Virus record (IMG/VR): IMGVR_UViG_3300032135_000005
Span: 1-64,000 of that record
DNA from: a virus
Lineage: Duplodnaviria; Caudoviricetes
DNA: 64,000 nt
Reading direction: 5' to 3' (one strand)
The notes below the pieces were generated by a model. It did no database searches. It saw only the letters and a program-made list of their open reading frames with translations, and was not told the origin of the DNA. Within the stretch, counting starts at the first letter, position 1. Each line of letters begins with the position of its first letter. This document shows, one piece after another, positions 4,436-64,000 of this stretch. Made by a program: the position numbers and the translations under genes.

Positions 4436-4438
4436 AAT

Positions 4439-4951
4439 TTAATAAATTAAGTATTTAGTTCCTGCTACTAGTGTTACATCTATAACTGCTTGGTCATAAT
4501 CTGCTTGGCTTATTTCAACTATATTAGTTATTGCAGAACTTCCTGTAGGTTCTCCCGTAATGGTGGATATTAGTATCTCTGTTACTGTTGATTGAGAACC
4601 TAAAGATATAAAGTTTTGAGCTGTTAGTGTACTTGTTACATTCATAGCACCACTAACAGTTCCTCCTATCTTAGGAAATTTTAAGTTTAAAGCACTTTGT
4701 AAATCTGCCTGAGCTGACAGAGTTCCTGTTATAGTTCCCCAAGTAGTTGCTGTTGCAGATCCTCCTGGAACATAAAGACTCCAAGAACCACTGACGTAGC
4801 GATAATCTGTATCCTCATCTTCTACATAAGTAATAAGGCCATTATACGGAATTGTAATATTCGCAAGACCAGAATAGGTAGAGACTTTAAATCTAGAATC
4901 TATTGGTAGTGGTGCGAATACTGTAAAACCTATATTAAGTGCTTTGCTCAT
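4439..4951 (-). CDS. Short fibre-like structural protein
   Basis: N-terminus paralogous to 2789..4435 (LNIGF..APLPIDSR; WGTITGTLSAQADLQSAL). Confidence 0.55.
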   Translation of the reverse strand: MSKALNIGFTVFAPLPIDSRFKVSTYSGLANITIPYNGLITYVEDEDTDYRYVSGSWSLYVPGGSATATTWGTITGTLSAQADLQSALNLKFPKIGGTVSGAMNVTSTLTAQNFISLGSQSTVTEILISTITGEPTGSSAITNIVEISQADYDQAVIDVTLVAGTKYLIY

Positions 4952-5290: not shown

Positions 5291-6487
5291 TTATCTGTAT
5301 AAAGTTAAAGTTGAAACGAGTGGTGACCTATACCCCCATCTGTAGACAGAGTAGATAATACCATTAACAAGAACATCTACGGGTGGACGAATAAAATCTC
5401 CCACTGCAATTATAGATGAGTTGGCTCCAAATTCTACCCACTTAGTGTAATCTCCTGCTGTCTGAATCTTAGGTACAGCTATAAATCCTTGCTGTCCTGC
5501 TGTTGTATCCACATTCATAGTTACTTGCTCTGTAGTGTCCTGGAAATCCGAAACTCTGGCTAAAATTTTAGCTTGTGTTACTGTAACTGCAGTATCATCT
5601 GCAGTAGATTCTTTATTATAATAAGATTTATCCCATACATTTACAGTTATTACTATATCTTCCATATTAGTAGCACTAAGTGTCCACGTAATTGGTCCAT
5701 ATACTGATAAAGGATATTCTAAAGGAACTGCTGGTGTGTAGGAATTTCCTGTTACAGCTTGAGCAATAAGAACTCCTTCGGAATCTGTAATAGTCATACC
5801 GGCAGGTACTCCTGTTGTCTCCCATGTAAACTGGGTGATAGTCAGAGTTGACCCTACTTCAGCTGCTGGTACGTAAGAGTCGAAAGTGAATGTACTTAGG
5901 TCTACGGTTCCTGATGCAGTTAAAGCTAAATCCCATATATCTTGTAGCAAAGTTCCAATAGGAAACACTTGCCCTATGTAGATTGAACCTAAACTTACTT
6001 GAGAAGTTATCTCAACTGTGAGGGCACCTCCAGCACCTAATAAATCTAGTTGGTCTTGTAGAGTACTGTCTCCTGCTATTCTATCTGCAATCTCTGCGAT
6101 TAAGTTATCTGATATAACTATGTCTTCGTCTATACTTGCTTGCTCTACTGCATTAAGTTGTGGAATAGTAGCATATACACCTACGCCTGGAGTTCCTCCT
6201 CCTGCCACGGGTGTGTACTCTAATCCTACAAATCCAAAAGATACCAGATTTCCTTCTATTGAATAGTAGTCAGTCATCCCTTGAATTTCATCTGCAGTCC
6301 AAGTTAATGTAGAACTTTCCAGAACTTCGATAGAGAGTTGCAACTCAATAGAGAGCTGTACTTTGTAGTCATCAATATCATTACGAGAATACTCTTCTAC
6401 CAGAGCTACCGTTAATTCCGCTATTTTTTGCTTAGCTCTACTTACGTAAAGAGCTTCAGCCGTTGATAATACTCTATCGTAGTACAT
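5291..6487 (-). CDS. Putative tail-associated structural protein
   Basis: 398-aa ORF in the tail block; helical N-terminus, coiled segment (EIADRIAGDSTLQDQLD), beta-rich C-terminus. Confidence 0.45.
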   Translation of the reverse strand: MYYDRVLSTAEALYVSRAKQKIAELTVALVEEYSRNDIDDYKVQLSIELQLSIEVLESSTLTWTADEIQGMTDYYSIEGNLVSFGFVGLEYTPVAGGGTPGVGVYATIPQLNAVEQASIDEDIVISDNLIAEIADRIAGDSTLQDQLDLLGAGGALTVEITSQVSLGSIYIGQVFPIGTLLQDIWDLALTASGTVDLSTFTFDSYVPAAEVGSTLTITQFTWETTGVPAGMTITDSEGVLIAQAVTGNSYTPAVPLEYPLSVYGPITWTLSATNMEDIVITVNVWDKSYYNKESTADDTAVTVTQAKILARVSDFQDTTEQVTMNVDTTAGQQGFIAVPKIQTAGDYTKWVEFGANSSIIAVGDFIRPPVDVLVNGIIYSVYRWGYRSPLVSTLTLYR

Positions 6488-7150: not shown

Positions 7151-10100
7151 TTAATTTAACCATTTACTTCTTTCGTGTAATCCTTCTGGAGTAAAAGATA
7201 CTAAATGTTTATAAAAAGGAAGTGTTTTTCCTAATTTAACTTTTAATCTATTTTCACCTTTTCTCCATCCTGCTTCATATTCCTCTAAAGGATAGGCCAT
7301 CTGAGCAGTTAATTCATATAATGACTCTCCTAAACTTACTGTAGCAGCAGGAGATCTTAATAATTTTAAAGCTTCTGGTATACTTGCATAAGCACTTAAT
7401 TCTGCTCTAAATCTCAACAGTTCATATTGTGAAAATCTGAATGCTCCTAATGCAAGTCTATCTTCCCAATTGTCTCCATCGTAATCATCTTCTATTTCTT
7501 TTCCGATTTTCCCGAACATAACACTTGCTAAGGCTGTAACAGTAATCATAGAAGCTTCTACTAAGAACCTCCTTATATTAGCTTTTTCGTGCGGTGTCAG
7601 ATGTGCCCAATTTTCTTTTGCTACTGCTAAGTTAAACTTTTTTATATCTCTTGCAAAGCTAAACAAAGCTCTACCACCTGAACGATAAAATCCTTCAACA
7701 TCTTGCTCTAGCAAATGATTAGGACTAGCTTTCCCGTATCTTTTTTTAGCTGATTCTGCCATCCAACCTCTAAATTGTAGCAACATATCACCCAAGGCGT
7801 GTTGTTTTGCAGCACCCGCAGTCTTAGGACTATAGTTACCGTGAGATTTTCTATTAACTCCTCCTATTTTATCCCCTATTCTATTTTGTTGCTTCGTATC
7901 ATATTGAACTAATGAACCATCTTTCTCTTTAATGTAAACGTCATCAATTACTAATTTACCTTCCTTAAGAGAATGTACATTTAACAGAGTTCCTATTTCA
8001 GTTCCTGATTTATCGTATGTTTTAGTTGCATCAAGCATTGCTAGTCCAGATCTTACCTGAAGTAAATGCTCAGCACCTGAAGTTAGAAAGTATGCTGTAC
8101 TTGTTTTTAGTAGCCTTCTCATTCTAGTTCTCTCGGCAGTACTAATTTGCTCTCCACCATAATTCTGCAAGAGATCATAATGCTCTTCTATTAAATTAAC
8201 TATAGATGAAGGAGTTCTTGCACCTATATCTCCTAGCATATTTGAAGTATCTTTACGATAAAACGTACTAGCAGTCTTTAAATTTTTAAATGAATAGTAC
8301 TCTCCACCTGCGGCTTCCATTAAATTAGAATACTCTCCGTATGTTGTATTAGCTCCAGCTGCTGTTAAATTAAATGGTATTTGTAGTATTGATGTGGCTC
8401 TAGTTACCCCTCTAAGACCTTTATTAACATCTACATTAGTTCCTAATATATTTATAGCTCCTAAATCCTCTTGCCTCATTCCGTATAATTGCATATCATA
8501 CACTTTCATCAACTGTTTATATGCAGTAGACTCTGGACCTGTAACATCAGAGTTTCCATAAGTCCTTTTCTCAGAACCTACAACTTCAGCTATTGCATCA
8601 AACACGTGAACCTGCTCGTACTTCGCTGTAAAACTAGTAGCCATTACGTGAAAAGCTTGAAGATTACTAGCTACATCTCTAGAAATTACTTTAAGTAGTT
8701 CTGATTTTGCTTTTGCTTCAGCTGCTTCTTCTGCTAATATGTCTGCCTCTTCGTGAGATTTCCCCTGTTCAGTATAAATATCATATATTTTTTTATAAGC
8801 TTTTTTGTACTCAACAGAATTATATTTTTGTGTATAGAAAGTAGGGATTCTCTTGACAGGTTTTCCTGTAGAGTCTTTTAATTGCCCTTTTTCCATATCT
8901 AGATTAGTAGCTATAATTTTATTTCTCATGTTATCCTTTAGTACATTGTACTTGTCAGCCATATTACCTCCTTGAAGTAATTCTAATTCTGATCTCATAA
9001 CACTCGGCATACGCGTACCCATCTTAGATGAAGTAGGAAGACCCACATCAAGAGTTCTCATTGTATCGTTGTAGAACACAAGAAAGTCCATTAATGCCGG
9101 ACGTCCTTTTATAGTGGCCAATTTAGCTAACATCTTTTGATGTAGAGGTGTTGTATTGTCTGCTGTAACAGTAGTATCTATTACATGAAGTTCGTTGTTA
9201 TGTTCTACTAAGATATCATCAAATACTGTATCTGCTTTACCTGAGTACTCAGCTTCTACAGCTTCTAGTTTACCTTGTAGATCCTTACTAAAATCTATAC
9301 CTTGTCTACGTGCTTTATGATCAGTTCCTCTTAGTCGTTTAGACGCTTCAAATAAAAGTCTATCTTTACTATCTCCCATATGCATCACCTGGTACTCAGT
9401 CCAAGTTACATCCTGAGGTGCACTATCTAATACTGCTCTAATATCTTTTTTGGACCAAGTAGGGTCATCTTTATGAAACTCTTCAACTAAGAACTCCTTA
9501 GATTTAGCTACATAGAAGTTTTGTATATCATTAATTTTCTCTGTTGTTCCATCAACCATTTTAAAACTATCTGAAAACAAAGATGCTACTTCAGAAGAGT
9601 CTAATAGTTGAGATTTCATAGTTCCTATTATGTCATAACTTGATGCTGTTTTATTTAATCCAGAAAATGTTACAATATCTTCTCTTGTTACAGCCGGCTT
9701 CTTAAATGCTGTCTCTGCTATTTGATATAATGAATTAACGTGAGCAGATGCAGACTCAAAGAACTTAGGAATACTAGTGTTTACTGATTCTGTTTCTAGG
9801 ATTTCTAGTAATTTTTGAAGGTTAGCAACATGTGTGTTGTCTCCTTTGTACTGCAAGTACTCAATTCTGTTCTCTATTTTAGCAATTATTTTTGGAATAT
9901 TATTGACTAACTTCTTAAATATTTCAGCAGCGTAGTCAAGTTCTACTTTAGCGTAGTCAACTCCGTGAGTGTATCTACCTGCAGCTATATCATCGTATAT
10001 AGGTTCTCCATTAAGATCGTTTTTACCCTGATACTCTTCTACGAATGCATCAGTTTTTGTGTAAAAGTACATATCTATTGCATCATCACTAGTCACAGTA

Positions 10101-53994: not shown

Positions 53995-54000
53995 AATTAA

Positions 54001-54222
54001 TTATTTATAAAAATTAGCAATAATAATGTTCTTTGGTTCTTGCCCTTTCCACCACCATTCTCCGCCAGTCTTCATATGATGTTCATTAGAGGTTGTAATT
54101 AATACCTTTTGTATAACGGATAACTCATAATGGATACCATCATCGAGATAGCAATCTCCAGGTAGTGGGCAGGATAAAGATGCACAAAATATTCTTCCAT
54201 CTTTTCTTATTCTAACTGCCAT
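54001..54222 (-). CDS. Hypothetical protein
   Basis: 73-aa ORF in the co-oriented small-gene cluster. Confidence 0.5.
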   Translation of the reverse strand: MAVRIRKDGRIFCASLSCPLPGDCYLDDGIHYELSVIQKVLITTSNEHHMKTGGEWWWKGQEPKNIIIANFYK

Positions 54223-54316
54223 AATTGTACTCTGTATTATTCATCACCATTCATTAAAACGAAATGGCAACAAAGGTTGTAAATAATAAAACCCTTGTCA
54301 CCTCTCGCTTGACTAT

Positions 54317-54499
54317 TTAACCTAGTACAAATTCATAGATTTTAGCCGCAACCTCAATCACATCATCCTGATGTTTAATAACATCACCTATTTTGTTTGG
54401 TAGATAAACAGGTTTCCCAACAACTCTTGTTGCGTAATCAATACATTCTAGTCTCATTTGTTGGTTTCGTTTGTTTTCCAACTCTTTTGAATTACTCAT
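54317..54499 (-). CDS. Hypothetical protein
   Basis: 60 aa, RLECIDYA...VIEVAAKIYEFV helical pattern. Confidence 0.55.
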   Translation of the reverse strand: MSNSKELENKRNQQMRLECIDYATRVVGKPVYLPNKIGDVIKHQDDVIEVAAKIYEFVLG

Positions 54500-54555
54500 A
54501 ATATATAATTTAATTAACTCAGCGTTTTTCTAACCCCACGCTAAAAAAGGGTTTT

Positions 54556-54681
54556 TCATTCTGATTTGGTATTTTCAGGAGCTGCGTAGAGAACTTGCTT
54601 GGGCTCATCACATTGTTTATACTCTTCAATACCCATTCTCTGTGCAATACCATTTACTAATACGATGTACGTTCTACTCAT
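54556..54681 (-). CDS. Small hypothetical protein (41 aa)
   Basis: MSRTYIVLVNGIAQRMGIEEYK..., translated by eye; overlaps the upstream stop codon. Confidence 0.4.
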   Translation of the reverse strand: MSRTYIVLVNGIAQRMGIEEYKQCDEPKQVLYAAPENTKSE

Positions 54682-54853
54682 TATGTTTTAATTTAGGATA
54701 TCCTTTTACTTCTAGTTCTGCTTTAAGGGCTTTAACAAGTTCATTCATTTGTTCTCTACTCATTATAGGAAACATATCAGGATAGGTCGCAAACCTTCTT
54801 TCATCCTTTGGAAGAACCTTCCTAATGGCCGGTGCTTTTTTATATTTTGCCAT
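54674..54853 (-). CDS. Small hypothetical protein (59 aa)
   Basis: MAKYKKAPAIRKVLPKDERRF..., translated by eye; coupled to its neighbours. Confidence 0.45.
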   Translation of the reverse strand: MAKYKKAPAIRKVLPKDERRFATYPDMFPIMSREQMNELVKALKAELEVKGYPKLKHNE

Positions 54854-55049
54854 CTCTTATTTTTCTTGCCGTTATATCCCATTCGTATTCACCATTGGCA
54901 TCTGGTTTAATATCAAGATTTGCTGTAAGGTACTCTTCAATCATAAGTTTACATTCTGCCTTACGTTGTTCAAACTGTTGCTCCATATACTCTCCAATTT
55001 TTTCTGCATCAACAAACACCATTCCTAAATTATCAAAGAACTCCTTCAC
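54840..55049 (-). CDS. Hypothetical protein
   Basis: GTG-start ORF; the true 5' end may be frameshifted from the ATG at 55081. Confidence 0.45.
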   Translation of the reverse strand: MKEFFDNLGMVFVDAEKIGEYMEQQFEQRKAECKLMIEEYLTANLDIKPDANGEYEWDITARKIRDGKI

Positions 55050-55077
55050 TTCTTCTGGGTCATTTTCTTATATCTAC

Positions 55078-55356
55078 TCATTTCTTCTGCGGTTTTAATT
55101 CAAATAACTTATCTAACTCATTGGCTACAGACTGAACCAATATCTCACTCCTCTTCTCCTCTATTGCACCAATCTGAAAAAATATGGCGTGCACTAATTC
55201 ATGCATAAAGGTATTTCTAGTCATCTCTTTGGACATTCCTAAAGAGAGAATAAGTTCTTGATCTTCGGGTTCGTGTAGTCCAAAACACTTCTTTAACTTC
55301 TTAAACTTTACTTTGTAGGTAATGTTACCTACTTTAATTTTCTTTGGTATATCCAT
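55078..55356 (-). CDS. Small zincin-like metallopeptidase
   Basis: IPKKIKVG..TYKV N-terminus and TFMHELVHAI (HExxH); ATG at 55356. Confidence 0.7.
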   Translation of the reverse strand: MDIPKKIKVGNITYKVKFKKLKKCFGLHEPEDQELILSLGMSKEMTRNTFMHELVHAIFFQIGAIEEKRSEILVQSVANELDKLFELKPQKK

Positions 55357-55482
55357 ATTCTTAGGTTTTATAAGGGTTTGACCAGTACAGAAAGTATACA
55401 AAACATGCCCTATTACTATAGGCTATGTATTGTACATAAGTTGTACTACTCTAACCCTTGTCATTACTGGGTTCTTCTTCTT

Positions 55483-55683
55483 TTACGCTTCCGTGAGACA
55501 TAGGGGATGGTCCATTGGATTATAATCTCCTATATAGAGAACAGTAAATCTATAACTTGTATGAGATTCTTCTTGTACTCTCCATAAAGAACTAGTCCCA
55601 TTAGGGTACCAAACTACTTTTGCTTTCCCTATTCCGTGAAGAACACGTTCAGCATTATGATCTCTGGATATATTATTTTTCAT
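55483..55683 (-). CDS. Hypothetical protein (first gene of the minus-strand block)
   Basis: ATG at 55683, preceded by a near-consensus TAccTTTA element. Confidence 0.4.
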   Translation of the reverse strand: MKNNISRDHNAERVLHGIGKAKVVWYPNGTSSLWRVQEESHTSYRFTVLYIGDYNPMDHPLCLTEA

Positions 55684-55838
55684 ACAGTAAAGGTACAACT
55701 TTTATTTTAAAATCTGTACTATAATTTTTAAAAAAATATTTTCGTGTGTCATTTCTGGGACCACTATGTAACACCACCCCCATCTATAGAATCAGCCTAC
55801 ACGGGTAGGGTAATATTAAACGTTAAACATTTAATCTA

Positions 55839-56270
55839 ATGCAAGAAACAAAAACTAAAAACAGTACAGATGCACAAATGAAAGCATTTATGAAAGGAGC
55901 CGTTTACGTTCCTTCTACATTTACAAGTAATTCAACCTTATGGGTAAGCTTATCCAAATCAATAGTCATTGATTGTACAATTCACGCTTCTAAACAGAAC
56001 CCTGAAAAGTGGTGGGTAACTAACGACTTCGACAATGAAGGCGTCAGCACAGGTGACTGTTATGATCGGATCCAAGACCGATTTGATGCAGGGGAACGTT
56101 CCATTACCATTAAGATGATACATCAAGAGCCTCGTCCTGAGGCTGATTGTGGACCCACCATAGAGTACGTATTAGGTCTTGAACGTGGTAAGTCTGTAAT
56201 CGATAACTATCGATTAGCACTGGATACTCCAGGTGCTGTACGTAATAGTATTGCAATCTTAATGGATTAA
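55839..56270 (+). CDS. Hypothetical protein (first plus-strand early gene)
   Basis: 143-aa ORF with an A/T-rich leader, followed by a terminator. Confidence 0.65.
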   Translation: MQETKTKNSTDAQMKAFMKGAVYVPSTFTSNSTLWVSLSKSIVIDCTIHASKQNPEKWWVTNDFDNEGVSTGDCYDRIQDRFDAGERSITIKMIHQEPRPEADCGPTIEYVLGLERGKSVIDNYRLALDTPGAVRNSIAILMD

Positions 56271-56275
56271 TCAAT

Positions 56276-56305
56276 AAGAGGCGCTGACGCGTCTCTTTTC
56301 TTTTT
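56276..56305 (+). terminator. Intrinsic terminator
   Basis: AAGAGGCGC-TGAC-GCGTCTCTT hairpin followed by a T-rich tract. Confidence 0.8.
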
Positions 56306-56367
56306 ACTTGGAAAGTGTGAACTACCATTGAATTGGAAAGAACAAACTAAATTACTTTAAGCTATTA

Positions 56368-56547
56368 TAGTTAGTGTATTATACCTTAGAGAGTTAGTTG
56401 TAAAGAGTTAAAGTACTAATTTAGGTAAGAACTCCTAACTTAACTGTTTATTGAGTGAATAATGTGCTTGTAAGCCTTGGTATCAGAGCTCTAAGCCCTT
56501 TATTCCACATTGAACATCTTACAACTCATCAATAATCAAACTAACTA
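56368..56547 (+). ncRNA. Putative structured RNA element A
   Basis: Nested stems TAGTTAGT/ACTAACTA, AGTTGTAA/TTACAACT, AATGTG/CACATT and TTAGG/CCTAA. Confidence 0.35.
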
Positions 56548-56586
56548 ATATAACATAAACCTAATTAAAACTTTAAATAACTACTT

Positions 56587-56691
56587 ATGAAAACAATACT
56601 ATCTCGTGATTACAGTATACCTGCTGTATCAACTATCACTAAAACAGCTACACATACAATAATAACTTACACTAAGCCTCTCTTGACCTAA
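56587..56691 (+). CDS. Small peptide (34 aa)
   Basis: MKTILSRDYSIPAVSTITKTATHTIITYTKPLLT after a typical A-rich leader. Confidence 0.4.
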   Translation: MKTILSRDYSIPAVSTITKTATHTIITYTKPLLT

Positions 56692-56702
56692 TGACAGAGA
56701 CG

Positions 56703-56829
56703 CTATACATTTATGTAAAGTCCTACACTATTGACCAATGTAGGCATTAAACTTTGAGTCAAGCTCTTATAATACTGAGCAATGTATAGAGAACAAGTCC
56801 TAAGCAAGACTTACAGAGTTAAACTGCTT
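56703..56829 (+). ncRNA. Putative structured RNA element B plus H-type pseudoknot C
   Basis: B: CTATACATT/AATGTATAG closes CCTACA/TGTAGG and GCTC/GAGC hairpins. C: AAGTC/GACTT stem whose loop AAGCA can pair with the downstream TGCTT. Confidence 0.45.
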
Positions 56830-56842
56830 TTAATTAAAACTT

Positions 56843-57053
56843 AACTATTCACCCATAGGAAGGAATTCAATAGTGCTAGTAGTCAACAGCTCTCCCAATG
56901 AACTGCGCAACTGTAGCTCTCACTGAACTGAAACAAGTACACAACCCTTAATGCAAGTGCACATTGCAAAAAGCTAGCATAATAGCTAGACACTGAATTA
57001 TACAATAACATCTGATGTCTATTAGTACTCAGGCCAGTTGTATGTGAATAGTT
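56843..57053 (+). ncRNA. Putative structured RNA element D
   Basis: Perfect 10-bp closing stem AACTATTCAC/GTGAATAGTT; internal AATTCA/TGAATT, TGCAA/TTGCA, AGCTA/TAGCT and ATACAA/TTGTAT stems. Confidence 0.5.
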
Positions 57054-57063
57054 TTTAATCAAT

Positions 57064-57173
57064 AATAATCATTATAGGTGTTACATTCCAGCCCTTAATA
57101 TAACATAGTACCTGTATAGGTACTAGGCTAATTCTATATGCAGAGACCAACAGTTGTGGAGCTAATGATTATT
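57064..57173 (+). ncRNA. Putative structured RNA element E
   Basis: 11-bp closing stem AATAATCATTA/TAATGATTATT; internal TAGTACCT/AGGTACTA hairpin. Confidence 0.45.
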
Positions 57174-57190
57174 TATTAAACAATACTAAT

Positions 57191-57270
57191 CCTATGTGCT
57201 AACAGCTTACACGCATCCACAATAAGATGAAGATCTTTAGAGTAATTTGTAAATACTGTTAGCAAGTAGG
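57191..57270 (+). ncRNA. Putative structured RNA element F
   Basis: CCTA/TAGG plus 9-bp TGCTAACAG/CTGTTAGCA stem. Confidence 0.45.
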
Positions 57271-57295
57271 TATTATTAATTAATAACTTAGTATT

Positions 57296-57448
57296 ATGAA
57301 AGACTTAAATAAAGAACTATCAGATATATCTCTTAAAGAGCTATATAAATTCAGAAGTATACTCAACATTATTATTAACAATAGAATAGAGACTGAAAGA
57401 TTAGAAGATGATAATGAATGTGATGCAACTGAAGTTGATATTTATTAA
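57296..57448 (+). CDS. Small protein (50 aa) with acidic tail
   Basis: MKDLNKELSDISLKELYKFRS...DDNECDATEVDIY, translated by eye. Confidence 0.55.
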   Translation: MKDLNKELSDISLKELYKFRSILNIIINNRIETERLEDDNECDATEVDIY

Positions 57449-57469
57449 AAACAATTAAAACCTTTAAAA

Positions 57470-57739
57470 ATAAAACACAAAAAAGATACTTTTACCGAAG
57501 GAACTTATATTATAATAATTACTGTATTGGTAATGATATTTATAAGTATACTCATTAAAATAGCTCCAATGAGTAACAGTGAAGCAGGAGCTATAATGAC
57601 TGAACGTGGAGGATATATGTATAACTTAGATGTAGTTTACATTTATATGCCTGAAGAGCCATTGGAGATAGAACTAGAAGCTGCAACTATATTAGCTAGT
57701 AATGCTGATGTTGTTGTTTTATCCTTAATCCAAGAGTAG
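57470..57739 (+). CDS. Small membrane-anchored hypothetical protein
   Basis: Frame is open from ATA at 57470, after an A-rich leader; hydrophobic YIIIITVLVMIFISILI segment. ORF track starts it at TTG 57527. Confidence 0.45.
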   Translation: MKHKKDTFTEGTYIIIITVLVMIFISILIKIAPMSNSEAGAIMTERGGYMYNLDVVYIYMPEEPLEIELEAATILASNADVVVLSLIQE

Positions 57740-57740
57740 T

Positions 57741-57881
57741 ATGACCTATAAAAGAGCTAAACTAGAACTAAAGATATTTAAGATAGTGAAAGCTGTCTTA
57801 TTTATCATAGTAATATCCTGCTTTGTATGGTTCATAGTGGACTGTTTCACTCAAGGATATGATTATAAACTATTACGATAA
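57741..57881 (+). CDS. Small membrane protein (46 aa)
   Basis: MTYKRAKLELKIFKIVKAVLFIIVISCFVWFIVDCFTQGYDYKLLR. Confidence 0.5.
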   Translation: MTYKRAKLELKIFKIVKAVLFIIVISCFVWFIVDCFTQGYDYKLLR

Positions 57882-58028
57882 TAGCTAAAAAGAAGAAAGT
57901 TCGTCGTACAATAGTACCAATTGAGAACCCTGCTACTAATACTAGCTTGAAACCTAAACTTAAGAGGTCAATTGAATGGTTCTTAGGAGAATCTGAATCT
58001 AAATTTCATAAATAACAACTAAATAATT

Positions 58029-58313
58029 ATGTTAACACTTAAAAAACTTAAAGAAATGACTCCTGGGAAAGTATTTGCCCAAGGTGTAATTAAAAACTCC
58101 CTTGAAGGCATTTATATGACAGATTCAAGGATTGGAGAGAATCTTATGTGGGTAGCTAAACGTGGAGGTATTTATGATTGGGCTATTTACATACATTGGG
58201 AAATCAGTGGATTTAATTACGTACTTACATCAGGAGATAAAGTACAATCTAAAGAATATATTCAAAAGCTTATACCTTGTGACAAAGAAGCTTTGAAGAT
58301 GTATAGACATTAA
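58029..58313 (+). CDS. Hypothetical protein
   Basis: 94 aa, WVAKRGGIYDWAIY motif, A-rich leader. Confidence 0.65.
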   Translation: MLTLKKLKEMTPGKVFAQGVIKNSLEGIYMTDSRIGENLMWVAKRGGIYDWAIYIHWEISGFNYVLTSGDKVQSKEYIQKLIPCDKEALKMYRH

Positions 58314-58332
58314 CAATTAAAAAGAAATAATT

Positions 58333-58557
58333 ATGCCAAAACATTTTGTAACATTTGGACAAATACATATTCATAGAATCAATAATAAAGTAATAGATCG
58401 TGATTCTGTAGCTGTATTTAATGCAGATTCTCCTCAAGAAGGAAGAGATAAAGCTTTTGAATTCTTTGGAAATAAGTTCTTTACTGATTACCATGATAAA
58501 GAATGGACAGGAGAAGACTTACATTTCTTCCCAAGAGGATATGTAGAAATAGAATAA
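58333..58557 (+). CDS. Hypothetical protein
   Basis: 74 aa, HFVTFGQ.H.H...FFPRG pattern. Confidence 0.65.
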   Translation: MPKHFVTFGQIHIHRINNKVIDRDSVAVFNADSPQEGRDKAFEFFGNKFFTDYHDKEWTGEDLHFFPRGYVEIE

Positions 58558-58568
58558 CAACTAAACTC

Positions 58569-58599
58569 TTTGATTGTTATAAAACATTTTGTATATTTG
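58569..58599 (+). promoter_or_regulatory. Bacteroidota sigma-A type promoter of the HNH gene
   Basis: TTTG-N19-TATATTTG, ending 4 nt before the ATG at 58604. Confidence 0.7.
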
Positions 58600-58603
58600 T
58601 ATT

Positions 58604-59044
58604 ATGAAGAAAATAGATGGAACTTATTCAATTAATACTCAAGGAGTAGTGATGAATATTAAAACAAATAAAAAACTATCGCATACTATAAGTAATGGAT
58701 ATGTGGTAGTTTCTCTTTATAGAAAAAGTAAGAAATTACATCAATTATTGGCACAATGTTTTATACCTAATCCTAATAATTATAAATATATAAACCATAA
58801 AGATGGTAATAAATTAAATAATTCTTTAGATAATTTAGAATGGTGTAATTATAGTATGAATTTAAAACATGCTTGGGATAATAATTTAAGAGTTTGGAAT
58901 CCTAAGAGTGCTAGAGTAAGTAGATTTAATGATACTGAAAAAACTGAGATTAAATCTTTAAAAGTTACTAAAACTAATAAAGAAATAGCTCAATTATATA
59001 ATTGTCATCCTTCTATTATACAAAGAATAACAAGTAATAAATAA
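58604..59044 (+). CDS. HNH homing endonuclease (I-HmuI/HNH_3-like) with C-terminal HTH
   Basis: NGYVVVSL, LHQLLAQCFIPNP...INHKDGNKLNNSLDNLEWC..S.N..HA, and KEIAQLYNCHPSIIQRI; very AT-rich. Confidence 0.88.
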   Translation: MKKIDGTYSINTQGVVMNIKTNKKLSHTISNGYVVVSLYRKSKKLHQLLAQCFIPNPNNYKYINHKDGNKLNNSLDNLEWCNYSMNLKHAWDNNLRVWNPKSARVSRFNDTEKTEIKSLKVTKTNKEIAQLYNCHPSIIQRITSNK

Positions 59045-59046
59045 TT

Positions 59047-59285
59047 AAACTCTTTGAATTGAAGATAAACAATAATTAAATGAAAGGATGATTGTCTAGA
59101 GGCATATTTAATGCGACAATAGGGTTATGAGGATTTTAATTATAAACTGTATCAGCAGTTGTGTTCCCGTAAGGGTATTAAATATTGTAGATGTATTATA
59201 GATATAAGAGACCTAGTTGAATTAACGACTGCAATGGCACATATCATACATAATATCCCATAACTGAACTTTGGGCAAAGAGTTT
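59047..59285 (+). ncRNA. Putative structured RNA element G
   Basis: 10-bp closing stem AAACTCTTTG/CAAAGAGTTT; GGTTATG-GGAT/ATCC-CATAACT; ATTGTC/GACAAT; AACTG/CAGTT; CCC-GTAA-GGG (GNRA loop); ATTGTAG/CTGCAAT. Confidence 0.55.
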
Positions 59286-59316
59286 TTTAAATTAATAATT
59301 AAAATCAATAAGAATA

Positions 59317-59487
59317 ATGGGAAAGAAATATGACCCTAATACACGCGAGCAAATATTTGAGCTCAAAGGAAATCGAACTGTGTTCAAAACACACAATGGC
59401 TTCAAATGCCATCTACAAGATAAAAATGATGTTGTTACACCTATTTCACAAGAATACTACACTAAAGTAAAACGCAGTAAACTATGA
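59317..59487 (+). CDS. Small hypothetical protein (56 aa)
   Basis: MGKKYDPNTREQIFELKGNR...; stop overlaps the next ATG (ATGA). Confidence 0.55.
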   Translation: MGKKYDPNTREQIFELKGNRTVFKTHNGFKCHLQDKNDVVTPISQEYYTKVKRSKL

Positions 59488-59669
59488 AATATCTTAAATA
59501 CACAGCATTAGTATTAACCTTTATATTTATGATGATACCAGCATATAATAGCTATGATTTAGTTGTTACCAATGTACATAACTTTATGGACAATTGGTAC
59601 TACTATGTATTAGCATTAATATGTTATGTTATCTATGTAGTATTAAAGAACAAAAACATTTTTAAGTAA
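59484..59669 (+). CDS. Small two-helix membrane protein
   Basis: Two hydrophobic segments. Confidence 0.55.
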   Translation: MKYLKYTALVLTFIFMMIPAYNSYDLVVTNVHNFMDNWYYYVLALICYVIYVVLKNKNIFK

Positions 59670-59780
59670 GCAAGCGATTAATTAACACGCTGCTCATTGC
59701 TTACGAGCACCTAACCTTTTATTGGATCTACTAACAATAACGTTGTTGGAAATCGAACCGGACTAATAAAGTTAGGTGCT
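59666..59780 (+). ncRNA. Putative structured RNA elements H and I
   Basis: GTAAGCAA/TTGCTTAC hairpin, then 10-bp AGCACCTAAC/GTTAGGTGCT plus TTTATTGG/CTAATAAA stem. Confidence 0.5.
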
Positions 59781-59802
59781 TTAATTAAAATCCATAAAAC
59801 TT

Positions 59803-60456
59803 ATGAAAGAACTAATAAAAGTACATATGTTACCTGACAGTAAACCTAGAAGTGTACTGTGTAATAGTAAAACTAAAGAATATAAGTACTCTAAATTAGG
59901 TTCTTTAAGCTTAGGACATTTAGATTTTCAACCACAAAACCTATACTTCACATCAGATGAAAAGATTAAATCAAATGAAGGTAAGATAATGGGGGACTGG
60001 TGTTGGAATAGTATTTATAATAAAATATTCCAAATGAATGGAGATGTAACTGCATATGATTTTAAAATAGTAGCAACTACTGATAAATCATTAATTATAC
60101 CTTGTAAATGTGGTAATATAAGTCCTTGTGCTTTATATCCAGAACAAATTTGTAATTTTAAAAAGTATCCACAAATATCCCAACAATTTCAAGAAGAATA
60201 TTGTAAAGCTGGAGGTATTGATGAGGTTTATTTAGAATATGAACTAAATCCACATATTTATGATAGTTCTAAAGATACTAAAACACTTAAACTAGACTTA
60301 AACAATTGTGTTATTACTCATCCTGTTGAACTTAAACTTTATACTAAGGAAGAAGTAAATGCTAAATGTATTGCTTTTGCTGATTTATGTGTGCATAAAG
60401 GAATCTTTAGGGAAAAAATAAGAGGAGAGTTTATCAATTGGATTAAAGAAACTTAA
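59803..60456 (+). CDS. Hypothetical protein
   Basis: 217 aa, PQNLYFTSDEKIK..GDW and KIVATTD motifs common in Bacteroidota phage early proteins; contains a Cys-rich insert. Confidence 0.65.
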   Translation: MKELIKVHMLPDSKPRSVLCNSKTKEYKYSKLGSLSLGHLDFQPQNLYFTSDEKIKSNEGKIMGDWCWNSIYNKIFQMNGDVTAYDFKIVATTDKSLIIPCKCGNISPCALYPEQICNFKKYPQISQQFQEEYCKAGGIDEVYLEYELNPHIYDSSKDTKTLKLDLNNCVITHPVELKLYTKEEVNAKCIAFADLCVHKGIFREKIRGEFINWIKET

Positions 60457-60469
60457 ACTAATAGATATT

Positions 60470-60547
60470 ATGTCTAAAATAATTAAAGTAATACTCTTGA
60501 TTATACTATTTATGATAATTCAAGCTGTATTCTTTAGAATTTCTTAA
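60470..60547 (+). CDS. Hydrophobic micro-peptide (25 aa)
   Basis: MSKIIKVILLIILFMIIQAVFFRIS. Confidence 0.4.
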   Translation: MSKIIKVILLIILFMIIQAVFFRIS

Positions 60548-60551
60548 GGCT

Positions 60552-60886
60552 AAACATTGAACCTTTGTGAAGAGAAGTGAGTCCTCCAAGTATTGAAAAA
60601 TAGATGGAATAAAGGTTAGCATAATTCACATAAAGATACTAATCCTGAGCACAGGATATTAACAGAGAATAGTAGACTCAAACTCTACTCTGCTTTTAGT
60701 AAGAACCATAAAGAATTATTTAGTAGTAAATTGCTATTAAAGAGAATCAATGTAAACCAAACAATTAAAAGATATAATAATGGAGTAATCCTAGATGTGT
60801 TGTTCTCTTGAGAAAGGAATATTGTAATGACAGAGGTACTGTTACAACACAAATGAGTTCTCAACATTAACTTGGGTTCAATGTTT
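60552..60886 (+). ncRNA. Putative structured RNA element J (about 335 nt)
   Basis: 12-bp closing stem AAACATTGAACC/GGTTCAATGTTT; internal ATCCTG/CAGGAT, GTAGA/TCTAC, AAGAGAA/TTCTCTT and TTGTAATG/TGTTACAA stems. Confidence 0.55.
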
Positions 60887-61027
60887 TTAATATAGTCCAA
60901 AATCCTTATGACTTTAAACTGTAACCTACCAGTAATGGTAACAAAAAATTATCTAAGTTAGTAGATTTTATATCGAAAAACCCCTTAAACCTCTGTATGT
61001 AATGTTTATGTGGTATGAACGATAAAG

Positions 61028-61415
61028 ATTGTAATATAAAAGTTACTTAAGAAAGGTAAGTCAATGGTTGTTCCTCAATATTAATATTGAAAACTTCAGA
61101 AAGGAAAATGACTTACTTTTATATTACAATTAGGAATAGATGCAACTGTATGAGATATGTTGCTTAGTGAATTAAAAACTCCCACAGACTAGTGGCTGGA
61201 GCACAATATAGAAATATATGAAGACACTTATTCACATTATTGGAAGTTCTCAGCAAGTAGTTAAGATGGTCAGGAAAATATTACGTAAGTAACTATTGAT
61301 TACTGGTTAAAAAATAAGTATCCACAATAACTACGTGACCCTACTCTTATGACCAAGTTGAATTTATTCAACGGTTATTAAAGAAATGAATTGACATATC
61401 CATAAGAAAGAGGGT
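61028..61415 (+). ncRNA. Putative structured RNA element(s) K-L
   Basis: 16-bp ATTGTAATATAAAAGT/ACTTTTATATTACAAT; GTAAGTCA/TGACTTAC; GCAAC/GTTGC; GTGAAT/ATTCAC; GTAGTTA/TAACTAC; ACCCT..TCTTATG/CATAAGA..AGGGT. Confidence 0.5.
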
Positions 61416-61446
61416 GCTAATTTAAAATAACTTAAAACCTTTACAA

Positions 61447-61608
61447 ATGATAACCAAATCAAAAAGAAGACATTTTACACGTCAATTAATTGACACTAGA
61501 TTAATGAATCTTTTAACTAAAATCTGTACTAATAAGTTAGAAGTTGAAATAAGATACAGACAAATGCGTATTGAACCAACATATATTTATGCAGGCTCAA
61601 GAGCGTAG
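61447..61608 (+). CDS. Small basic protein (53 aa)
   Basis: MITKSKRRHFTRQLIDTRL..., after an AAAACCTTTACAA leader. Confidence 0.45.
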   Translation: MITKSKRRHFTRQLIDTRLMNLLTKICTNKLEVEIRYRQMRIEPTYIYAGSRA

Positions 61609-61933
61609 AGAAATAATAGAAGTATTTGAAAAACTAATCAAATATATAGAAGAGAACTTAGATAATTGCACATATTTATGTCTAATGAAACAGTATATAG
61701 GTTCATTTAGAACCTGTGGCTTTAATAGAATGATTATTCTAGCTCACAATTATCTACAGGCACAACGACCTACTTCAACTAAGAATAAAAAGCATTATAA
61801 CTCTTTATCCTTTAGTAGAAATAAACATGCTGAACCTGCTTGGTGGAACTATCAATTACAACCTGATAGAGTACCAACAAATATGGAAAAAGTAAGATTT
61901 TTAAAGCATTTAATACAGAAACTTAAAAGATAA
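61589..61933 (+). CDS. Hypothetical protein
   Basis: ATG at 61589; YLC...RPT...WW...KVRFLKHLI pattern. Confidence 0.6.
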   Translation: MQAQERREIIEVFEKLIKYIEENLDNCTYLCLMKQYIGSFRTCGFNRMIILAHNYLQAQRPTSTKNKKHYNSLSFSRNKHAEPAWWNYQLQPDRVPTNMEKVRFLKHLIQKLKR

Positions 61934-62132
61934 TTATTATCTTTACAGTCATCCTTGTGAGTGCATCTGGTTAAACTCTCATCTTTTTCATATGCAATTT
62001 TCCTCTCTTTGGGCCATGATCTTAAAGGGAGGTTTTAACTAAAATTTAATGAATATAAAACTACAATATAAGTAAGGGTCTCCTACGGATAATGCCGGGG
62101 AGTTTTTACTTTAATCTTAAAACCATAAAGAA

Positions 62133-64000
62133 ATGAGTAAATTTAAAAAAGGTGACAAAGTAATGATACGTCCTGATAGTGAATATTATCGAGGACAGAA
62201 CTTCCGTAAGGGTGAAGTAATTATGCGTACTATTACAAGTATTGCAGATAATACTGGGTTAAATCATCATACTGACCATAATGTTTATAATGAAAAGGAT
62301 TTAGAGTTCTATCGTGACGATGCTAGCTCTACTCGTAAATTTAAAGTAGGAGATGCAATTATAGGTAATTCCACAGCAACATATAATGTTACTAAAGAAG
62401 GATGGATTGGAGTTGTAACTAAACTTCTAACAGATAATATTATTGAGGCTAGAAATTTTACTCCTAATGATCCTAAAGACTCAAGTTATACATTAAGAGA
62501 AGAAGCATTTGATTTACATACAGTAGCTAAATTTAAAAAAGGAAATATTGTAAGAGCTCTTGTAGATAGTCCACGTGCACTAGCTGCTTTGTGTTCTAAA
62601 GGAGATTTACTTAGAGTAGACGATGTATATGGAACTACCAGTTTCTCTTCAGATATGTGTAGAGGAGAGGCTCATTATTGGAGTGGAATGCACACGGAAG
62701 ATTTTGAACTTACAAGTTTAACCTCAACTGAACCTGCAGTTAAAAAGCCTGATATATCTTACAAGTTTGCAGTAGGAGATACTGTTAAAATTGTAGCAAA
62801 TGGATGGGGTGTAGGAGAGAGAGCTTTAGGTAAAACTACTACAATAACAGAATTAGGTCTTTATTGTGGTCCTGGATATAAATGTAGTCTTGGATTTGGT
62901 AATTGCGCACATGGTAGTCATGGATTTGTTGGAGAGAAATCTTTTGAACTAATAAGTCCGGAATCTATAAAAGAATCATCTTATAAATTTGATATAGGAG
63001 ATATAGTAAGAATTATAAGGAGTGGACACGGAATAGCCAACAGTGATGAAGGTCAAGAAGTTACTATTATAGAGCAGGGTATGTATCAGAATAAAGAACT
63101 TGGATACAGAATAGACCCACCATTTGGTAACTCTAAAGATGGTAAATTTAAGTATATGTGTGGAGAAACTTCATTTGAGTTAGTAAGTCGACCTATAAAG
63201 AGTCCAAGTTTTAAAGCAAGAGACATTCTAGAATTTATTCGTAAAGACCCAATTGGTACTTGTTTTGAAATTGGCGACCACGTTACTTTCCTTAAGTATG
63301 AGGGTGATACGGTAAAAGCTAAAGGTATAATGTCTACTTCAGATTGTATTACAACTCAAAATGCTCGTATTCATCAATTTAAGTTTGTACGTTCAGCTAA
63401 AGATGTACCTAAAGCAATTCTCACATCATTTCCAACTGAAGGTTGGTGTCTTAATGCAAATATGTCTCTTGGAATATTTTTAAGAGATAAATTTGAAGTA
63501 GGTTCTTCTCCTAAACCTTCAGGTTCTAGTGGATATGCTTGGAATTCCCATAGTTATTGGGCTATAGCTACATTTTCAGGTAAACCTAAATATGATTGGG
63601 AAGATTTAAAACAATTTGTAAAAGCTGCATCAGAACTTAAAATAATTGCATCTAGTTCTAAATCAACGCCACTTAAATATAAATTAGATGATAAATTAGT
63701 TATTAAGTATAGATTACACGGAAATATGTTTGAAATAGGAACTGTTGTTCAAGTAGTAGAAATTAATGCTAAATATATTAACTGTCCTTATAGAGTAGTT
63801 AGTGTTAGTTCAGAAGGTGATAGTGATTGGTGGGTTAATGATGATGAAGTTGATTTTTATGGCGATAAAGTTCCTGATTATCCTCTTAAATATAGTAAAG
63901 GAGACAAAGTTGTTATTACAGGAAATACTAATGACCACGGATTTGGAATTGGTGATGTAGTTAAGATTACATCAGTACATTTACCTAGCAATAGTTATAC
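62133..64000 (+). CDS. Tandem SH3/KOW-like repeat protein (runs off the window)
   Basis: Not in the ORF track. ATG at 62133 is open to the end; repeated KF(K/A/D)xGDxV units roughly every 60-75 aa, several ending in FEL. Confidence 0.7.
   Translation, partial: MSKFKKGDKVMIRPDSEYYRGQNFRKGEVIMRTITSIADNTGLNHHTDHNVYNEKDLEFYRDDASSTRKFKVGDAIIGNSTATYNVTKEGWIGVVTKLLTDNIIEARNFTPNDPKDSSYTLREEAFDLHTVAKFKKGNIVRALVDSPRALAALCSKGDLLRVDDVYGTTSFSSDMCRGEAHYWSGMHTEDFELTSLTSTEPAVKKPDISYKFAVGDTVKIVANGWGVGERALGKTTTITELGLYCGPGYKCSLGFGNCAHGSHGFVGEKSFELISPESIKESSYKFDIGDIVRIIRSGHGIANSDEGQEVTIIEQGMYQNKELGYRIDPPFGNSKDGKFKYMCGETSFELVSRPIKSPSFKARDILEFIRKDPIGTCFEIGDHVTFLKYEGDTVKAKGIMSTSDCITTQNARIHQFKFVRSAKDVPKAILTSFPTEGWCLNANMSLGIFLRDKFEVGSSPKPSGSSGYAWNSHSYWAIATFSGKPKYDWEDLKQFVKAASELKIIASSSKSTPLKYKLDDKLVIKYRLHGNMFEIGTVVQVVEINAKYINCPYRVVSVSSEGDSDWWVNDDEVDFYGDKVPDYPLKYSKGDKVVITGNTNDHGFGIGDVVKITSVHLPSNSY

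What the first reader, a model, noticed from the sequence alone, without database searches (positions are those of the whole stretch)
56368..62110. Array of about ten structured non-coding elements in the early region
About 2.3 kb of the 6-kb early region lacks plausible ORFs. Nearly every such stretch is bounded by a perfect 8-16-bp long-range inverted repeat enclosing nested hairpins (A 56368-56547, B 56703-56789, D 56843-57053, E 57064-57173, F 57191-57270, G 59047-59285, I 59706-59780, J 60552-60886, K 61028-61130, L 61338-61415). Elements are separated by short unstructured A/T linkers. Where checked (G, I, J), stem mismatches are G-U pairs on the + strand, consistent with selection on RNA. 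The elements differ in sequence and none looks like a tRNA. Inference: a polycistronic cluster of phage ncRNAs, such as decoys, antitoxin mimics or ribozymes, excised from the early transcript.
Basis: partly seen in the sequence, partly recalled or inferred. Interest (0 to 1): 0.85.

Follow-up and report, generated by a model that had tools for sequence, protein, structure and literature searches.

The report
Phage early-region RNA gene island
The gene-poor start of this crAss-like phage's early region holds three conserved folded RNA genes that are missing from the RNA catalogue and that sit among tRNA genes in many other phages. The other six proposed elements could not be verified, and the function of the RNAs is unknown.

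Summary
Partly confirmed. The window is a crAss-like phage. The flagged 5.8 kb lies between two + strand terminators, is about half ORF-free, and has roughly twice the chance number of long-range perfect inverted repeats.

Comparative evidence supports three RNA genes, not ten:
- **G (59045-59287)** belongs to a virus-only family with 58 copies in the DNA I fetched. Its helices and a loop-loop contact co-vary.
- **J (60546-~60890)** is the core of the RNA family whose copy in cultured phage phi14:2 lies where very abundant 'long non-coding RNA' was reported.
- **K and L** are parts of one further RNA, KL (60888-61420). It stands alone in another phage. In most phages its L part is fused to J.

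Rfam matches none of them. In other phages these RNAs abut tRNA and tmRNA genes and share arrays with GOLLD RNA. HNH endonuclease cassettes repeatedly insert next to them.

A, B, D, E, F and I have no detectable relatives. A, B, D and E fold no better than shuffled sequence; F and I are stable hairpins.

Function is unknown. My best guess is stable RNAs cut from the early transcript.

This scan had already met the J family on other DNA. The G family and the J/KL split are followed up here for the first time.

The parts
56276..56297 (+). Intrinsic terminator after the first early ORF (55839-56270). Left border of the flagged unit.
   Evidence: Terminator scan, 9-bp stem with 5 G-C pairs and a T-run.
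56368..56547 (.). Element A: orphan, unverified.
   Evidence: The closing repeat is real. z is -1.8 on + and -0.3 on -. No homologues. One 14-nt identity (TTAACTGTTTATTG at 56440) with the syntenic leader of relative L140, at a similar distance from the terminator.
56703..56789 (.). Element B: orphan, unverified.
   Evidence: 9-bp closing repeat. z is -1.7 on + and -3.1 on -. No homologues.
56843..57053 (.). Element D: orphan, unverified. Folds better on the minus strand.
   Evidence: 10-bp closing repeat. z is -0.9 on + (-46.0 kcal/mol) and -1.85 on - (-59.8 kcal/mol). No homologues.
57064..57173 (.). Element E: orphan, unverified.
   Evidence: 11-bp A/T-rich closing repeat. z is -0.7 on +. 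No homologues.
57191..57270 (+). Element F: stable long hairpin just upstream of ORF 57296-57448. Orphan.
   Evidence: z is -4.8 on + and -3.6 on -. No homologues.
58563..59046 (+). HNH homing-endonuclease cassette inserted at the 5' edge of G. It has a 12-nt duplication of G's 5' end (58562-58573 and 59046-59057), its own Bacteroidetes-type promoter (58569-58599) and an ORF (58589/58604-59044).
   Evidence: PHROG HNH families, E 7.5e-37. Promoter motif TTTG-N-TAnnTTTG, the only one on the + strand of the region. Direct repeat read.
59045..59287 (+). G RNA, a multi-helix RNA. P1 closing helix 59047-59056 with 59276-59285. Conserved 5' motif UUGAAGAUAAACAAUAA at 59059-59075. P3 hairpin 59144-59160. 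Lineage-specific GNRA hairpin 59166-59175. P5 hairpin 59257-59275. The P3 loop (UCAG) kisses the P5 loop (CUGA).
   Evidence: 110 bits against covariance model R1. Family statistics. Kissing-loop covariation. No Rfam match even at E 10.
59706..59780 (+). Element I: very stable imperfect hairpin between ORFs 59484-59669 and 59803-60456. Orphan. Possibly a processing or attenuation hairpin.
   Evidence: z is -4.8 and -6.2 in the sliding scan. No homologues.
60546..60890 (+). J RNA. P1 hairpin with invariant loop CUAAACAUUGA (60546-60565). P2 60566-60630. P3 hairpin 60642-60657. GNRA hairpin 60782-60791. Helix UGUGUUGU/ACAACACA (60796-60803 with 60844-60851) enclosing a hairpin whose loop UUGAGAA (about 60808-60814) pairs with UUCUCA (60858-60863). 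Terminal hairpin 60863-60885 plus a U-tract.
   Evidence: Nucleotide-level conservation with phi14:2 although the neighbouring protein is 33% identical. About 25 homologues. Helix counts. Same terminal hairpin plus U-tract in L003, L019, L020 and L266.
60888..61420 (+). KL RNA. GUAA-loop hairpin near 60925-60945. K helix 61028-61043 with 61115-61130. Hairpin 61142-61163 with conserved loop UGUAUGAGAUAU. Helix GUGAAU/AUUCAC. Strand AGUUCUCAGCAAGUAGUUA 61245-61263. P8 GUAGUUA/UAACUAC (61257-61263 with 61328-61334). P9, which is element L, 61338-61415. 3' end GCUAA 61416-61420.
   Evidence: Collinear with a unit in L262 that directly follows a G-like RNA, with no J in the locus; blocks are 90-100% identical. 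The L part is 100% conserved over 22-25 nt in many loci. P8 and P9 covariation read.
62002..62032 (+). Intrinsic terminator. Right border of the flagged unit.
   Evidence: 12-bp stem plus T-run.

Best explanation
The stretch is an 'RNA island' at the start of the phage's early, rightward transcription unit. Small ORFs are interleaved with three genuine RNA genes, G, J and KL, which belong to widespread, uncatalogued structured RNA families so far seen only in viruses.

**What is shown**
- The three families are conserved and their helices co-vary.
- G has a co-varying loop-loop contact.
- In other phages the RNAs are embedded in arrays of tRNA, tmRNA and GOLLD genes, on the same strand and within about 0-12 nt of tRNA genes.
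- HNH homing-endonuclease cassettes repeatedly insert at their edges.
- In most phages J and the L part are one fused RNA. In this phage, and in a few others, they are two RNAs, each with its own copy of the strand GAGUUCUCA.

**What is inferred**
- The RNAs are transcribed early as part of a long precursor.
- They are trimmed to stable, compact species by host RNases: RNase P and RNase Z where tRNAs flank them, and cuts in the A/U-rich linkers otherwise.
- They act in trans as part of the phage's translation and RNA-metabolism takeover kit, either as tRNA-shaped mimics (G) or as large RNA-only or RNP scaffolds in the manner of GOLLD and ROOL (J, KL).

**What is left open**
The six orphan elements (A, B, D, E, F, I) are best treated as unproven. 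F and I are real stable hairpins, perhaps processing or attenuation signals for the neighbouring ORFs. A, B, D and E may be lineage-specific RNA modules or chance repeats in A/T-rich DNA.
For: **G**
- A 17-mer scan gave about 45 true copies. Covariance model R1 finds 58 copies in the loaded loci.
- 98.3% of cells pair, against 89.3% in shuffles and 27-54% when partners are slid. 14 of 22 pairs change on both sides, and 0 of 500 shuffles reach the observed values.
- The P3 and P5 loops are complementary in 31 of 32 members, in variants CUAG/CUAG, UCAG/CUGA, UUCAG/CUGAA, UCCAGU/ACUGGA, UUACAG/CUGUAA and UAUCAG/CUGAUA. Cross-paired loops match in 46% of cases.
- G abuts tRNA or tmRNA genes in L066, L048, L021, L091, L124 and L043. 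It lies directly upstream of J in L005, L021, L026 and L041.

**J and KL**
- Blocks are near-identical to phi14:2 although the flanking protein is 33% identical.
- P1, P2, P3, P8 and P9 show compensatory variants.
- The pseudoknot is compensated in L036, with AAAA/UUUU in place of GAG/CUC.
- KL stands alone after G in L262.

**Expression**
Two long intergenic regions of phi14:2 are transcribed rightward above most genes, from the earliest time point, and persist.

**Context**
- GOLLD (250 bits) and 20 tRNAs lie beside the J/L RNA in L009.
- phi14:2 has a tmRNA at 4031-4500.
- There is one internal host-type promoter, and terminators bracket the unit.
- Long-range inverted repeats are also enriched in the syntenic ORF-free stretches of relatives L140 and L139.
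Against: - There are no expression or end-mapping data for this phage. Assigning the phi14:2 'g004-g005 junction' to 2905-3589 is my inference from gene spacing, because the paper's gene table was not available.
- The covariance-model alignment leans towards the model's structure.
- The J core is almost invariant, so its central helix and both pseudoknots rest mainly on conservation plus one or two compensated cases. The KL pseudoknot (UGAGA with UCUCA) has no covariation at all.
- Sliding-window folding energies do not separate non-coding from coding DNA here.
- This phage has no tRNA genes, so RNase P/Z trimming cannot define the ends here.
- The function is pure inference from genomic neighbourhood.
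Confidence: 0.7

Rival explanations
1. One reading: all ten elements are separate non-coding RNAs (decoys, antitoxin mimics, ribozymes), each excised from one early transcript at its closing helix.
For: - Long-range perfect repeats are about twice as frequent as chance and tile the ORF-free stretches.
- The same enrichment occurs in relatives' ORF-free leaders.
- Relative L140 has a syntenic 850-nt ORF-free leader that ends in a hammerhead ribozyme.
- Three of the units are proven RNA families.
Against: - K and L are one RNA.
- A, B, D and E fold no better than shuffles, and B, D and E fold better on the other strand.
- The six orphans have no homologues and so no covariation.
- No ribozyme model or hammerhead core matches on the + strand here.
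Confidence: 0.15
2. The orphan elements are cis-acting signals in the early mRNA, not RNA genes. They would be hairpins that serve as RNase III or RNase E processing sites, stabilisers or attenuators between cistrons, as in the T7 early region.
For: - F and I are strong single hairpins lying 25-30 nt upstream of start codons.
- The recurring A/U-rich linker TTAATTAAAA follows A, B, G and I.
- The unit appears polycistronic.
Against: - There is no conservation to test.
- A, D and E are long multibranch predictions with weak energies, unlike RNase III sites.
- The comparison with T7 comes from my own knowledge and was not tested here.
Confidence: 0.3
3. The ORF-free kilobase A-F is a DNA-level element, such as a replication origin, a packaging or end region, or a recombination hot spot at the strand-switch point. 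On this view its inverted repeats act in DNA or are chance.
For: - The cumulative GC-skew minimum and the switch in gene orientation lie at about 56 kb.
- The repeats are strand-symmetric in energy.
- One public assembly of the same phage breaks at 56569.
Against: - I found no iterons or tandem repeats.
- The region lies downstream of a terminator, inside the rightward unit.
- A syntenic leader in L140 carries a strand-specific ribozyme.
Confidence: 0.2
4. The 380 nt between the two GAGUUCUCA copies (60864-61244, with K) is an intron-like mobile insertion in a single J-L RNA gene. It would be an ORF-less relative of the HNH-carrying insertions in L003 and L019, removed by splicing.
For: - L003, L019, L266 and L267 have an HNH gene at the same site.
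- The hairpins upstream of GGGAGUUCUCAG are conserved and co-vary.
- The closest relative, L139, has no insertion.
Against: - In L262 the same unit follows G with no J anywhere in the 11-kb locus.
- No group I or group II model matches.
- No pair of splice sites with U at the 5' exon end and G at the intron end restores the family consensus (my reading).
- J is followed by a hairpin plus U-tract that looks like a terminator.
- There is no remnant of an HNH ORF.
Confidence: 0.15

Closest known systems
The 'long non-coding RNAs' of Cellulophaga crAss-like phage phi14:2 (Drobysheva et al., bioRxiv 10.1101/2020.03.07.982082)
   Same: J and the L part are homologous at the nucleotide level to phi14:2 2908-3365, downstream of the homologous 217/236-aa gene. 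phi14:2 also has a G-like RNA at about 1283-1567 and a tmRNA at 4031-4500, on the same strand and in the same order. The paper reports two long intergenic regions transcribed rightward above most genes, early and persistently, with unknown function.
   Different: The paper gives no structure, family or boundaries. In phi14:2, J and L are one RNA of about 450 nt. In this phage they are two genes with an added K domain. Which published junction is which RNA is my inference.
GOLLD and ROOL large ornate RNAs (Rfam RF02032 and others; Kretsch et al., Nature 2025, PMC12286853)
   Same: They occupy the same niche: phage-encoded, next to tRNA islands, large, with pseudoknots and kissing loops, and of unknown function. 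A GOLLD gene lies between a J/L RNA and a 20-tRNA array in L009. In that study, loop contacts first read as tertiary proved to be intermolecular, and the same could be true of G's kissing loop.
   Different: No sequence or model similarity: Rfam gives no match at E up to 10. G is much smaller, at 140-340 nt. Oligomerisation is untested.
Phage T4 stable RNAs C and D (species 1 and 2) of the tRNA gene cluster
   Same: Small stable RNAs of unknown function encoded within a phage tRNA cluster and matured from the same precursor. This comes from my own knowledge and was also named by earlier notes of this scan. It was not tested here.
   Different: No sequence comparison was made. This phage has no tRNA cluster at all.
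RNase III processing hairpins between the early genes of phage T7
   Same: Structured elements between cistrons of a polycistronic early transcript. This comes from my own knowledge.
   Different: The T7 sites are single, roughly 20-bp irregular hairpins. G, J and KL are conserved multi-helix RNAs of 240-530 nt. The comparison applies only as a rival reading for F and I.

Membership tests
G family (uncatalogued; defined here by covariance model R1) | 10-12-bp closing helix around the motif UUGAAGAUAAACARUAA and a central hairpin AAACUG...CAGUU. | tested here: met
   The window copy scores 110 bits, E 7e-19, over the full model length.
G family (uncatalogued; defined here by covariance model R1) | Complementarity between the central hairpin loop and the loop of the hairpin next to the 3' closing strand. 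| tested here: met
   UCAG (P3 loop) with CUGA (P5 loop) in the window; 31 of 32 members have at least 4 bp.
J/L family (phi14:2 long non-coding RNA family; uncatalogued) | 5' hairpin with loop CUAAACAUUGA, joint AAAGAUACUAAUCC, GNRA hairpin GGAGUAAUCC, helix UGUGUUGU/ACAACACA, and loop UUGAGAA pairing with UUCUCAG. | tested here: met
   All motifs are present in order at 60546-60863.
J/L family (phi14:2 long non-coding RNA family; uncatalogued) | A contiguous 3' domain: CAGCAAGUAGUUA, helix with UAACUAC, hairpin ACCCUACUCUUAU...AUAAGAAAGAGGGU, then GCUAA. | tested here: inconclusive
   The 3' domain is present at 61245-61420. It is separated from the core by 380 nt, with a second copy of the strand AGUUCUCA. 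The same separated unit stands alone in L262.
J/L family (phi14:2 long non-coding RNA family; uncatalogued) | Abundant stable + strand transcript during infection. | not testable with these tools
   Only the published statement for phi14:2 is available.
Any Rfam 15 family, including GOLLD, ROOL, tmRNA, RNase P, 6S and the self-cleaving ribozymes | A covariance-model match. | tested here: not met
   0 matches at E up to 1 in 54000-64000 and at E up to 10 on G alone.
Group I intron (for 60864-61244) | A model match, plus splice sites (U before the 5' site, G before the 3' site) that restore the uninterrupted consensus. | tested here: not met
   No Intron_gpI match in the window, L003 or L019. 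No such pair of sites gives AAAUGAGUUCUCAGCAAG (sequences).
Hammerhead ribozyme | CUGANGA ... GAAA core between three stems. | tested here: not met
   The core pattern is absent on the + strand of 56-62 kb. It is present in relative L140 at 8291-8352, at 56.2 bits against a gathering score of 56.3.
tRNA / tmRNA | Detection by ARAGORN or the Rfam models. | tested here: not met
   0 genes in the window and in the whole 93.8-kb genome.

The most novel reading that the evidence does not exclude
G, J and KL would be the tRNA-independent core of phage 'RNA islands'. On this reading they are self-folding RNAs that work without a dedicated protein, for example as self-assembling cages or multimers held by the co-varying loop contacts, or as catalysts acting on host tRNA or ribosomes. 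The six orphan helix-closed modules would be further, fast-evolving RNA genes, which would make this early operon mostly an RNA arsenal.
Probability: 0.12. Interest if true: 0.85.

Novelty: new variant of a known kind. Interest (0 to 1): 0.6.

Why it matters
crAss-like phages are among the most abundant viruses known, yet their early regions are almost unannotated. This work shows that part of the 'empty' early DNA encodes at least three conserved, elaborately folded RNAs.

These RNAs are shared with many marine and gut Bacteroidota-type phages. They travel with tRNA, tmRNA and GOLLD genes and are conserved enough to be targets of homing endonucleases. One family matches transcripts reported as more abundant than most mRNAs in the only cultured marine crAss-like phage.

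That gives concrete, cloneable candidates, with boundaries, structures and a cultured model, for asking what phage tRNA-island RNAs do. The same question is open for GOLLD, ROOL and T4 RNAs C and D.

Tried and rejected
- **Alternative genetic codes.** TAG=Q and TGA=W open no convincing ORFs in the gaps.
- **Rfam.** No match at permissive thresholds on the region, on G alone, or on a G+J locus.
- **Close relatives through neighbouring proteins.** The 217-aa, 622-aa and 143-aa proteins give none, or only strains with 1-3 SNPs.
- **Relatives through the 294-aa late protein.** This gave L139 and L140, which have syntenic early regions but no sequence match to A-F or I.
- **Searches for the orphan elements.** blastn, nhmmer and covariance model R1 found nothing in about 1.2 Mb of loci or in the phage database.
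- **Repeated promoter.** The 14-mer that A shares with L140 is single-copy in the genome.
- **Iterons or tandem repeats in A-F.** None found.
- **Sliding-window z-scores.** Not discriminating, even for the proven RNAs. A first, heavier run timed out.
- **J, K and L as one gene with an intron.** This was my working model until. I dropped it because L262 has the K-L unit without J.
- **RNase P-like or group I-like readings of the J core.** Considered from memory, then rejected on topology and on the lack of any model match.
- **An obligate protein partner.** Relatives of the 217-aa protein lie near G or J in only about 9 loci.
- **G in cellular genomes.** 80 pattern matches were fetched, and none is a true copy by the covariance model.
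- **First automated kissing-loop script.** It mis-called the loops and was replaced by the script.

Full report
**Setting**

The window is a crAss-like phage. A 56-kb minus-strand late block carries ORFs of 2691 and 2408 aa, and a plus-strand block starts at 55839. The whole genome is one contig of 93,763 bp with no tRNA gene. The flagged stretch lies between two + strand intrinsic terminators, at 56276-56297 and 62002-62032. It contains only one host-type (Bacteroidetes) promoter motif, which belongs to an HNH endonuclease cassette.

**The observation**

The ten closing inverted repeats are real. Independent gene calls on a near-identical contig leave about 2.9 kb without a gene.

Perfect repeats 40-350 nt apart are about twice as frequent as in dinucleotide shuffles:

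| Repeat length | Observed | Shuffle mean |
|---|---|---|
| 9 bp or more | 30 | 17.3 |
| 10 bp or more | 11 | 5.0 |
| 11 bp or more | 6 | 1.4 |
| 12 bp or more | 4 | 0.44 |

Other parts of the genome lie mostly near expectation, and this region has the highest count in the genome. The ORF-free early stretches of two relatives show the same excess.

Folding energies do not support the claim. A, B, D and E are within 2 sd of shuffles even with hand-picked boundaries. Several elements fold better on the minus strand. In an unbiased sliding scan, non-coding windows fold no better than coding ones, and only element I stands out.

**G is a real RNA**

G's ends and two internal blocks recur in phage contigs. 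A 17-mer scan gave about 45 true copies, each with a perfectly complementary closing strand of different sequence.

A covariance model finds 58 copies in the loaded loci. On that alignment 98.3% of cells pair, and 14 of 22 pairs change on both sides. None of 500 shuffles reaches the observed values, and slid controls pair at 27-54%. The alignment is fitted to the model, so these counts lean towards the structure.

The loop of the central hairpin and the loop of the hairpin next to the 3' closing strand are complementary in 31 of 32 members. The variants switch together: CUAG/CUAG, UCAG/CUGA, UUCAG/CUGAA, UCCAGU/ACUGGA, UUACAG/CUGUAA and UAUCAG/CUGAUA.

G abuts tRNA or tmRNA genes within about 0-12 nt in several arrays. 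It lies directly upstream of J in four loci. Phage phi14:2 has a copy.

Rfam has no match. All 80 pattern matches fetched from cellular genomes are false by the model.

**J, K and L**

J is nearly identical in blocks to phi14:2 DNA downstream of a protein that is only 33% identical. A 16-mer scan gave about 25 homologues with a constant architecture: a 5' hairpin with an invariant loop, co-varying P2 and P3, a GNRA hairpin, an invariant 8-bp helix, and a loop-to-downstream-strand pseudoknot.

I first read this as an intron-like insertion, because L003 and L019 carry an HNH gene at that site. A further scan changed the reading. In L262 a G-like RNA is followed directly by a unit collinear with window 60888-61420, with blocks 90-100% identical and the K helix conserved. 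No J exists anywhere in that 11-kb locus.

J in this lineage ends in a hairpin plus U-tract. The downstream unit has its own conserved hairpin loop, UGUAUGAGAUAU. That loop can pair (UGAGA with UCUCA) with its own copy of the strand; this pairing is my inference and has no covariation behind it.

So the window holds J (60546-~60890) and KL (60888-61420) as two genes. No group I model matches, and no canonical pair of splice sites restores the consensus.

**Context and expression**

Drobysheva et al. report that two long intergenic regions of phi14:2 are transcribed rightward above most genes, early and persistently, and call them long non-coding RNAs of unknown function. By gene spacing these are most likely 2905-3589, which holds the J/L RNA, and 4102-4601, which ARAGORN and Rfam identify as a tmRNA. 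I could not check the paper's gene table.

Elsewhere the J/L RNA shares arrays with tRNAs, tmRNA and a GOLLD RNA. Relative L140 has a syntenic 850-nt ORF-free leader that ends in a hammerhead ribozyme. GOLLD and ROOL are phage RNAs of unknown function near tRNA islands that form RNA-only cages through kissing loops.

**The orphans**

A, B, D, E, F and I have no relatives in the phage database or in any of the fetched loci. Available strains differ by only three SNPs. They cannot be confirmed or refuted as RNA genes.

F and I are strong hairpins close to start codons.

**Verdict**

This is a real cluster of RNA genes, but it holds three, not ten. Their function is unknown, and the mechanism I propose is inference from neighbourhood. 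Earlier notes of this scan had already met the J family on other DNA and pointed me to the phi14:2 paper. The G family and the J/KL split are followed up here for the first time.

Noticed in passing
L001 (phi14:2, KC821624) 4031-4500: An unannotated tmRNA gene. ARAGORN gives tag GSSVQKLAMVA; Rfam gives 46 bits against a gathering score of 47, E 5e-15. It fills the second long ORF-free gap and is probably the second published 'long non-coding RNA'.
   Followed up: partly
L140 8291-8352 (minus strand of the locus): A RAGATH-1 hammerhead ribozyme (56.2 bits against a gathering score of 56.3). It sits at the end of an 850-nt ORF-free leader that is syntenic with elements A-F, in a relative whose 294-aa-protein homologue is 43% identical.
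   Followed up: partly
L009 3961-4386: A GOLLD RNA (250 bits) between a J/L-family RNA and an array of 20 tRNA genes in one phage contig.
   Followed up: no
window 55677-55789: The sequence just upstream of the first early ORF, at the divergent junction, is 79-81% identical in relatives L137 and L139, and a similar motif (..TAACACCACCCCC..) occurs in L140. It may be the early promoter or leader, or a genome-end feature.
   Followed up: no
window 58562-58573 and 59046-59057; L003, L019, L266, L267: HNH endonuclease cassettes with their own promoters sit at the edges of G and between J and the L part. Each is flanked by a short direct repeat of the RNA's own sequence (12 nt TAAACTCTTTGA; 8-9 nt GAGTTCTCA). 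The two HNH proteins are 37% identical.
   Followed up: partly
window 61047 (T in the window, C in strain L129): One of only three SNPs between strains. It turns a U-G pair into C-G in the inner hairpin of K (61043-61059). This fits selection for pairing, but it is a single case.
   Followed up: partly
L095 3488-3700 and L099 7291-7488: Some G-family members carry a perfect T-arm-like hairpin (5-bp stem, loop UUCGAUU) in their first variable arm.
   Followed up: no
L019 9085-9215 and L020 330-430: tRNA genes matched over the full Rfam model but 101-131 nt long, so they carry insertions. They lie just downstream of the J-family RNAs.
   Followed up: no
L009 about 6080-6191 (minus strand): In this J/L RNA the pseudoknot strand is split (GAGU ... 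UCUCAG) by two small GNRA hairpins with no duplication, so the site tolerates expansion.
   Followed up: no
window 56440-56453 and L140 about 8978: A 14-nt identity (TTAACTGTTTATTG) at a similar distance downstream of the first early terminator in two otherwise unalignable leaders. It is single-copy in the genome.
   Followed up: partly
window 56303-56349: Two 22-nt direct repeats (73% identical, 25 nt apart, core TTGGAAAG..AACTA) immediately after the terminator, at the start of the ORF-free kilobase.
   Followed up: no
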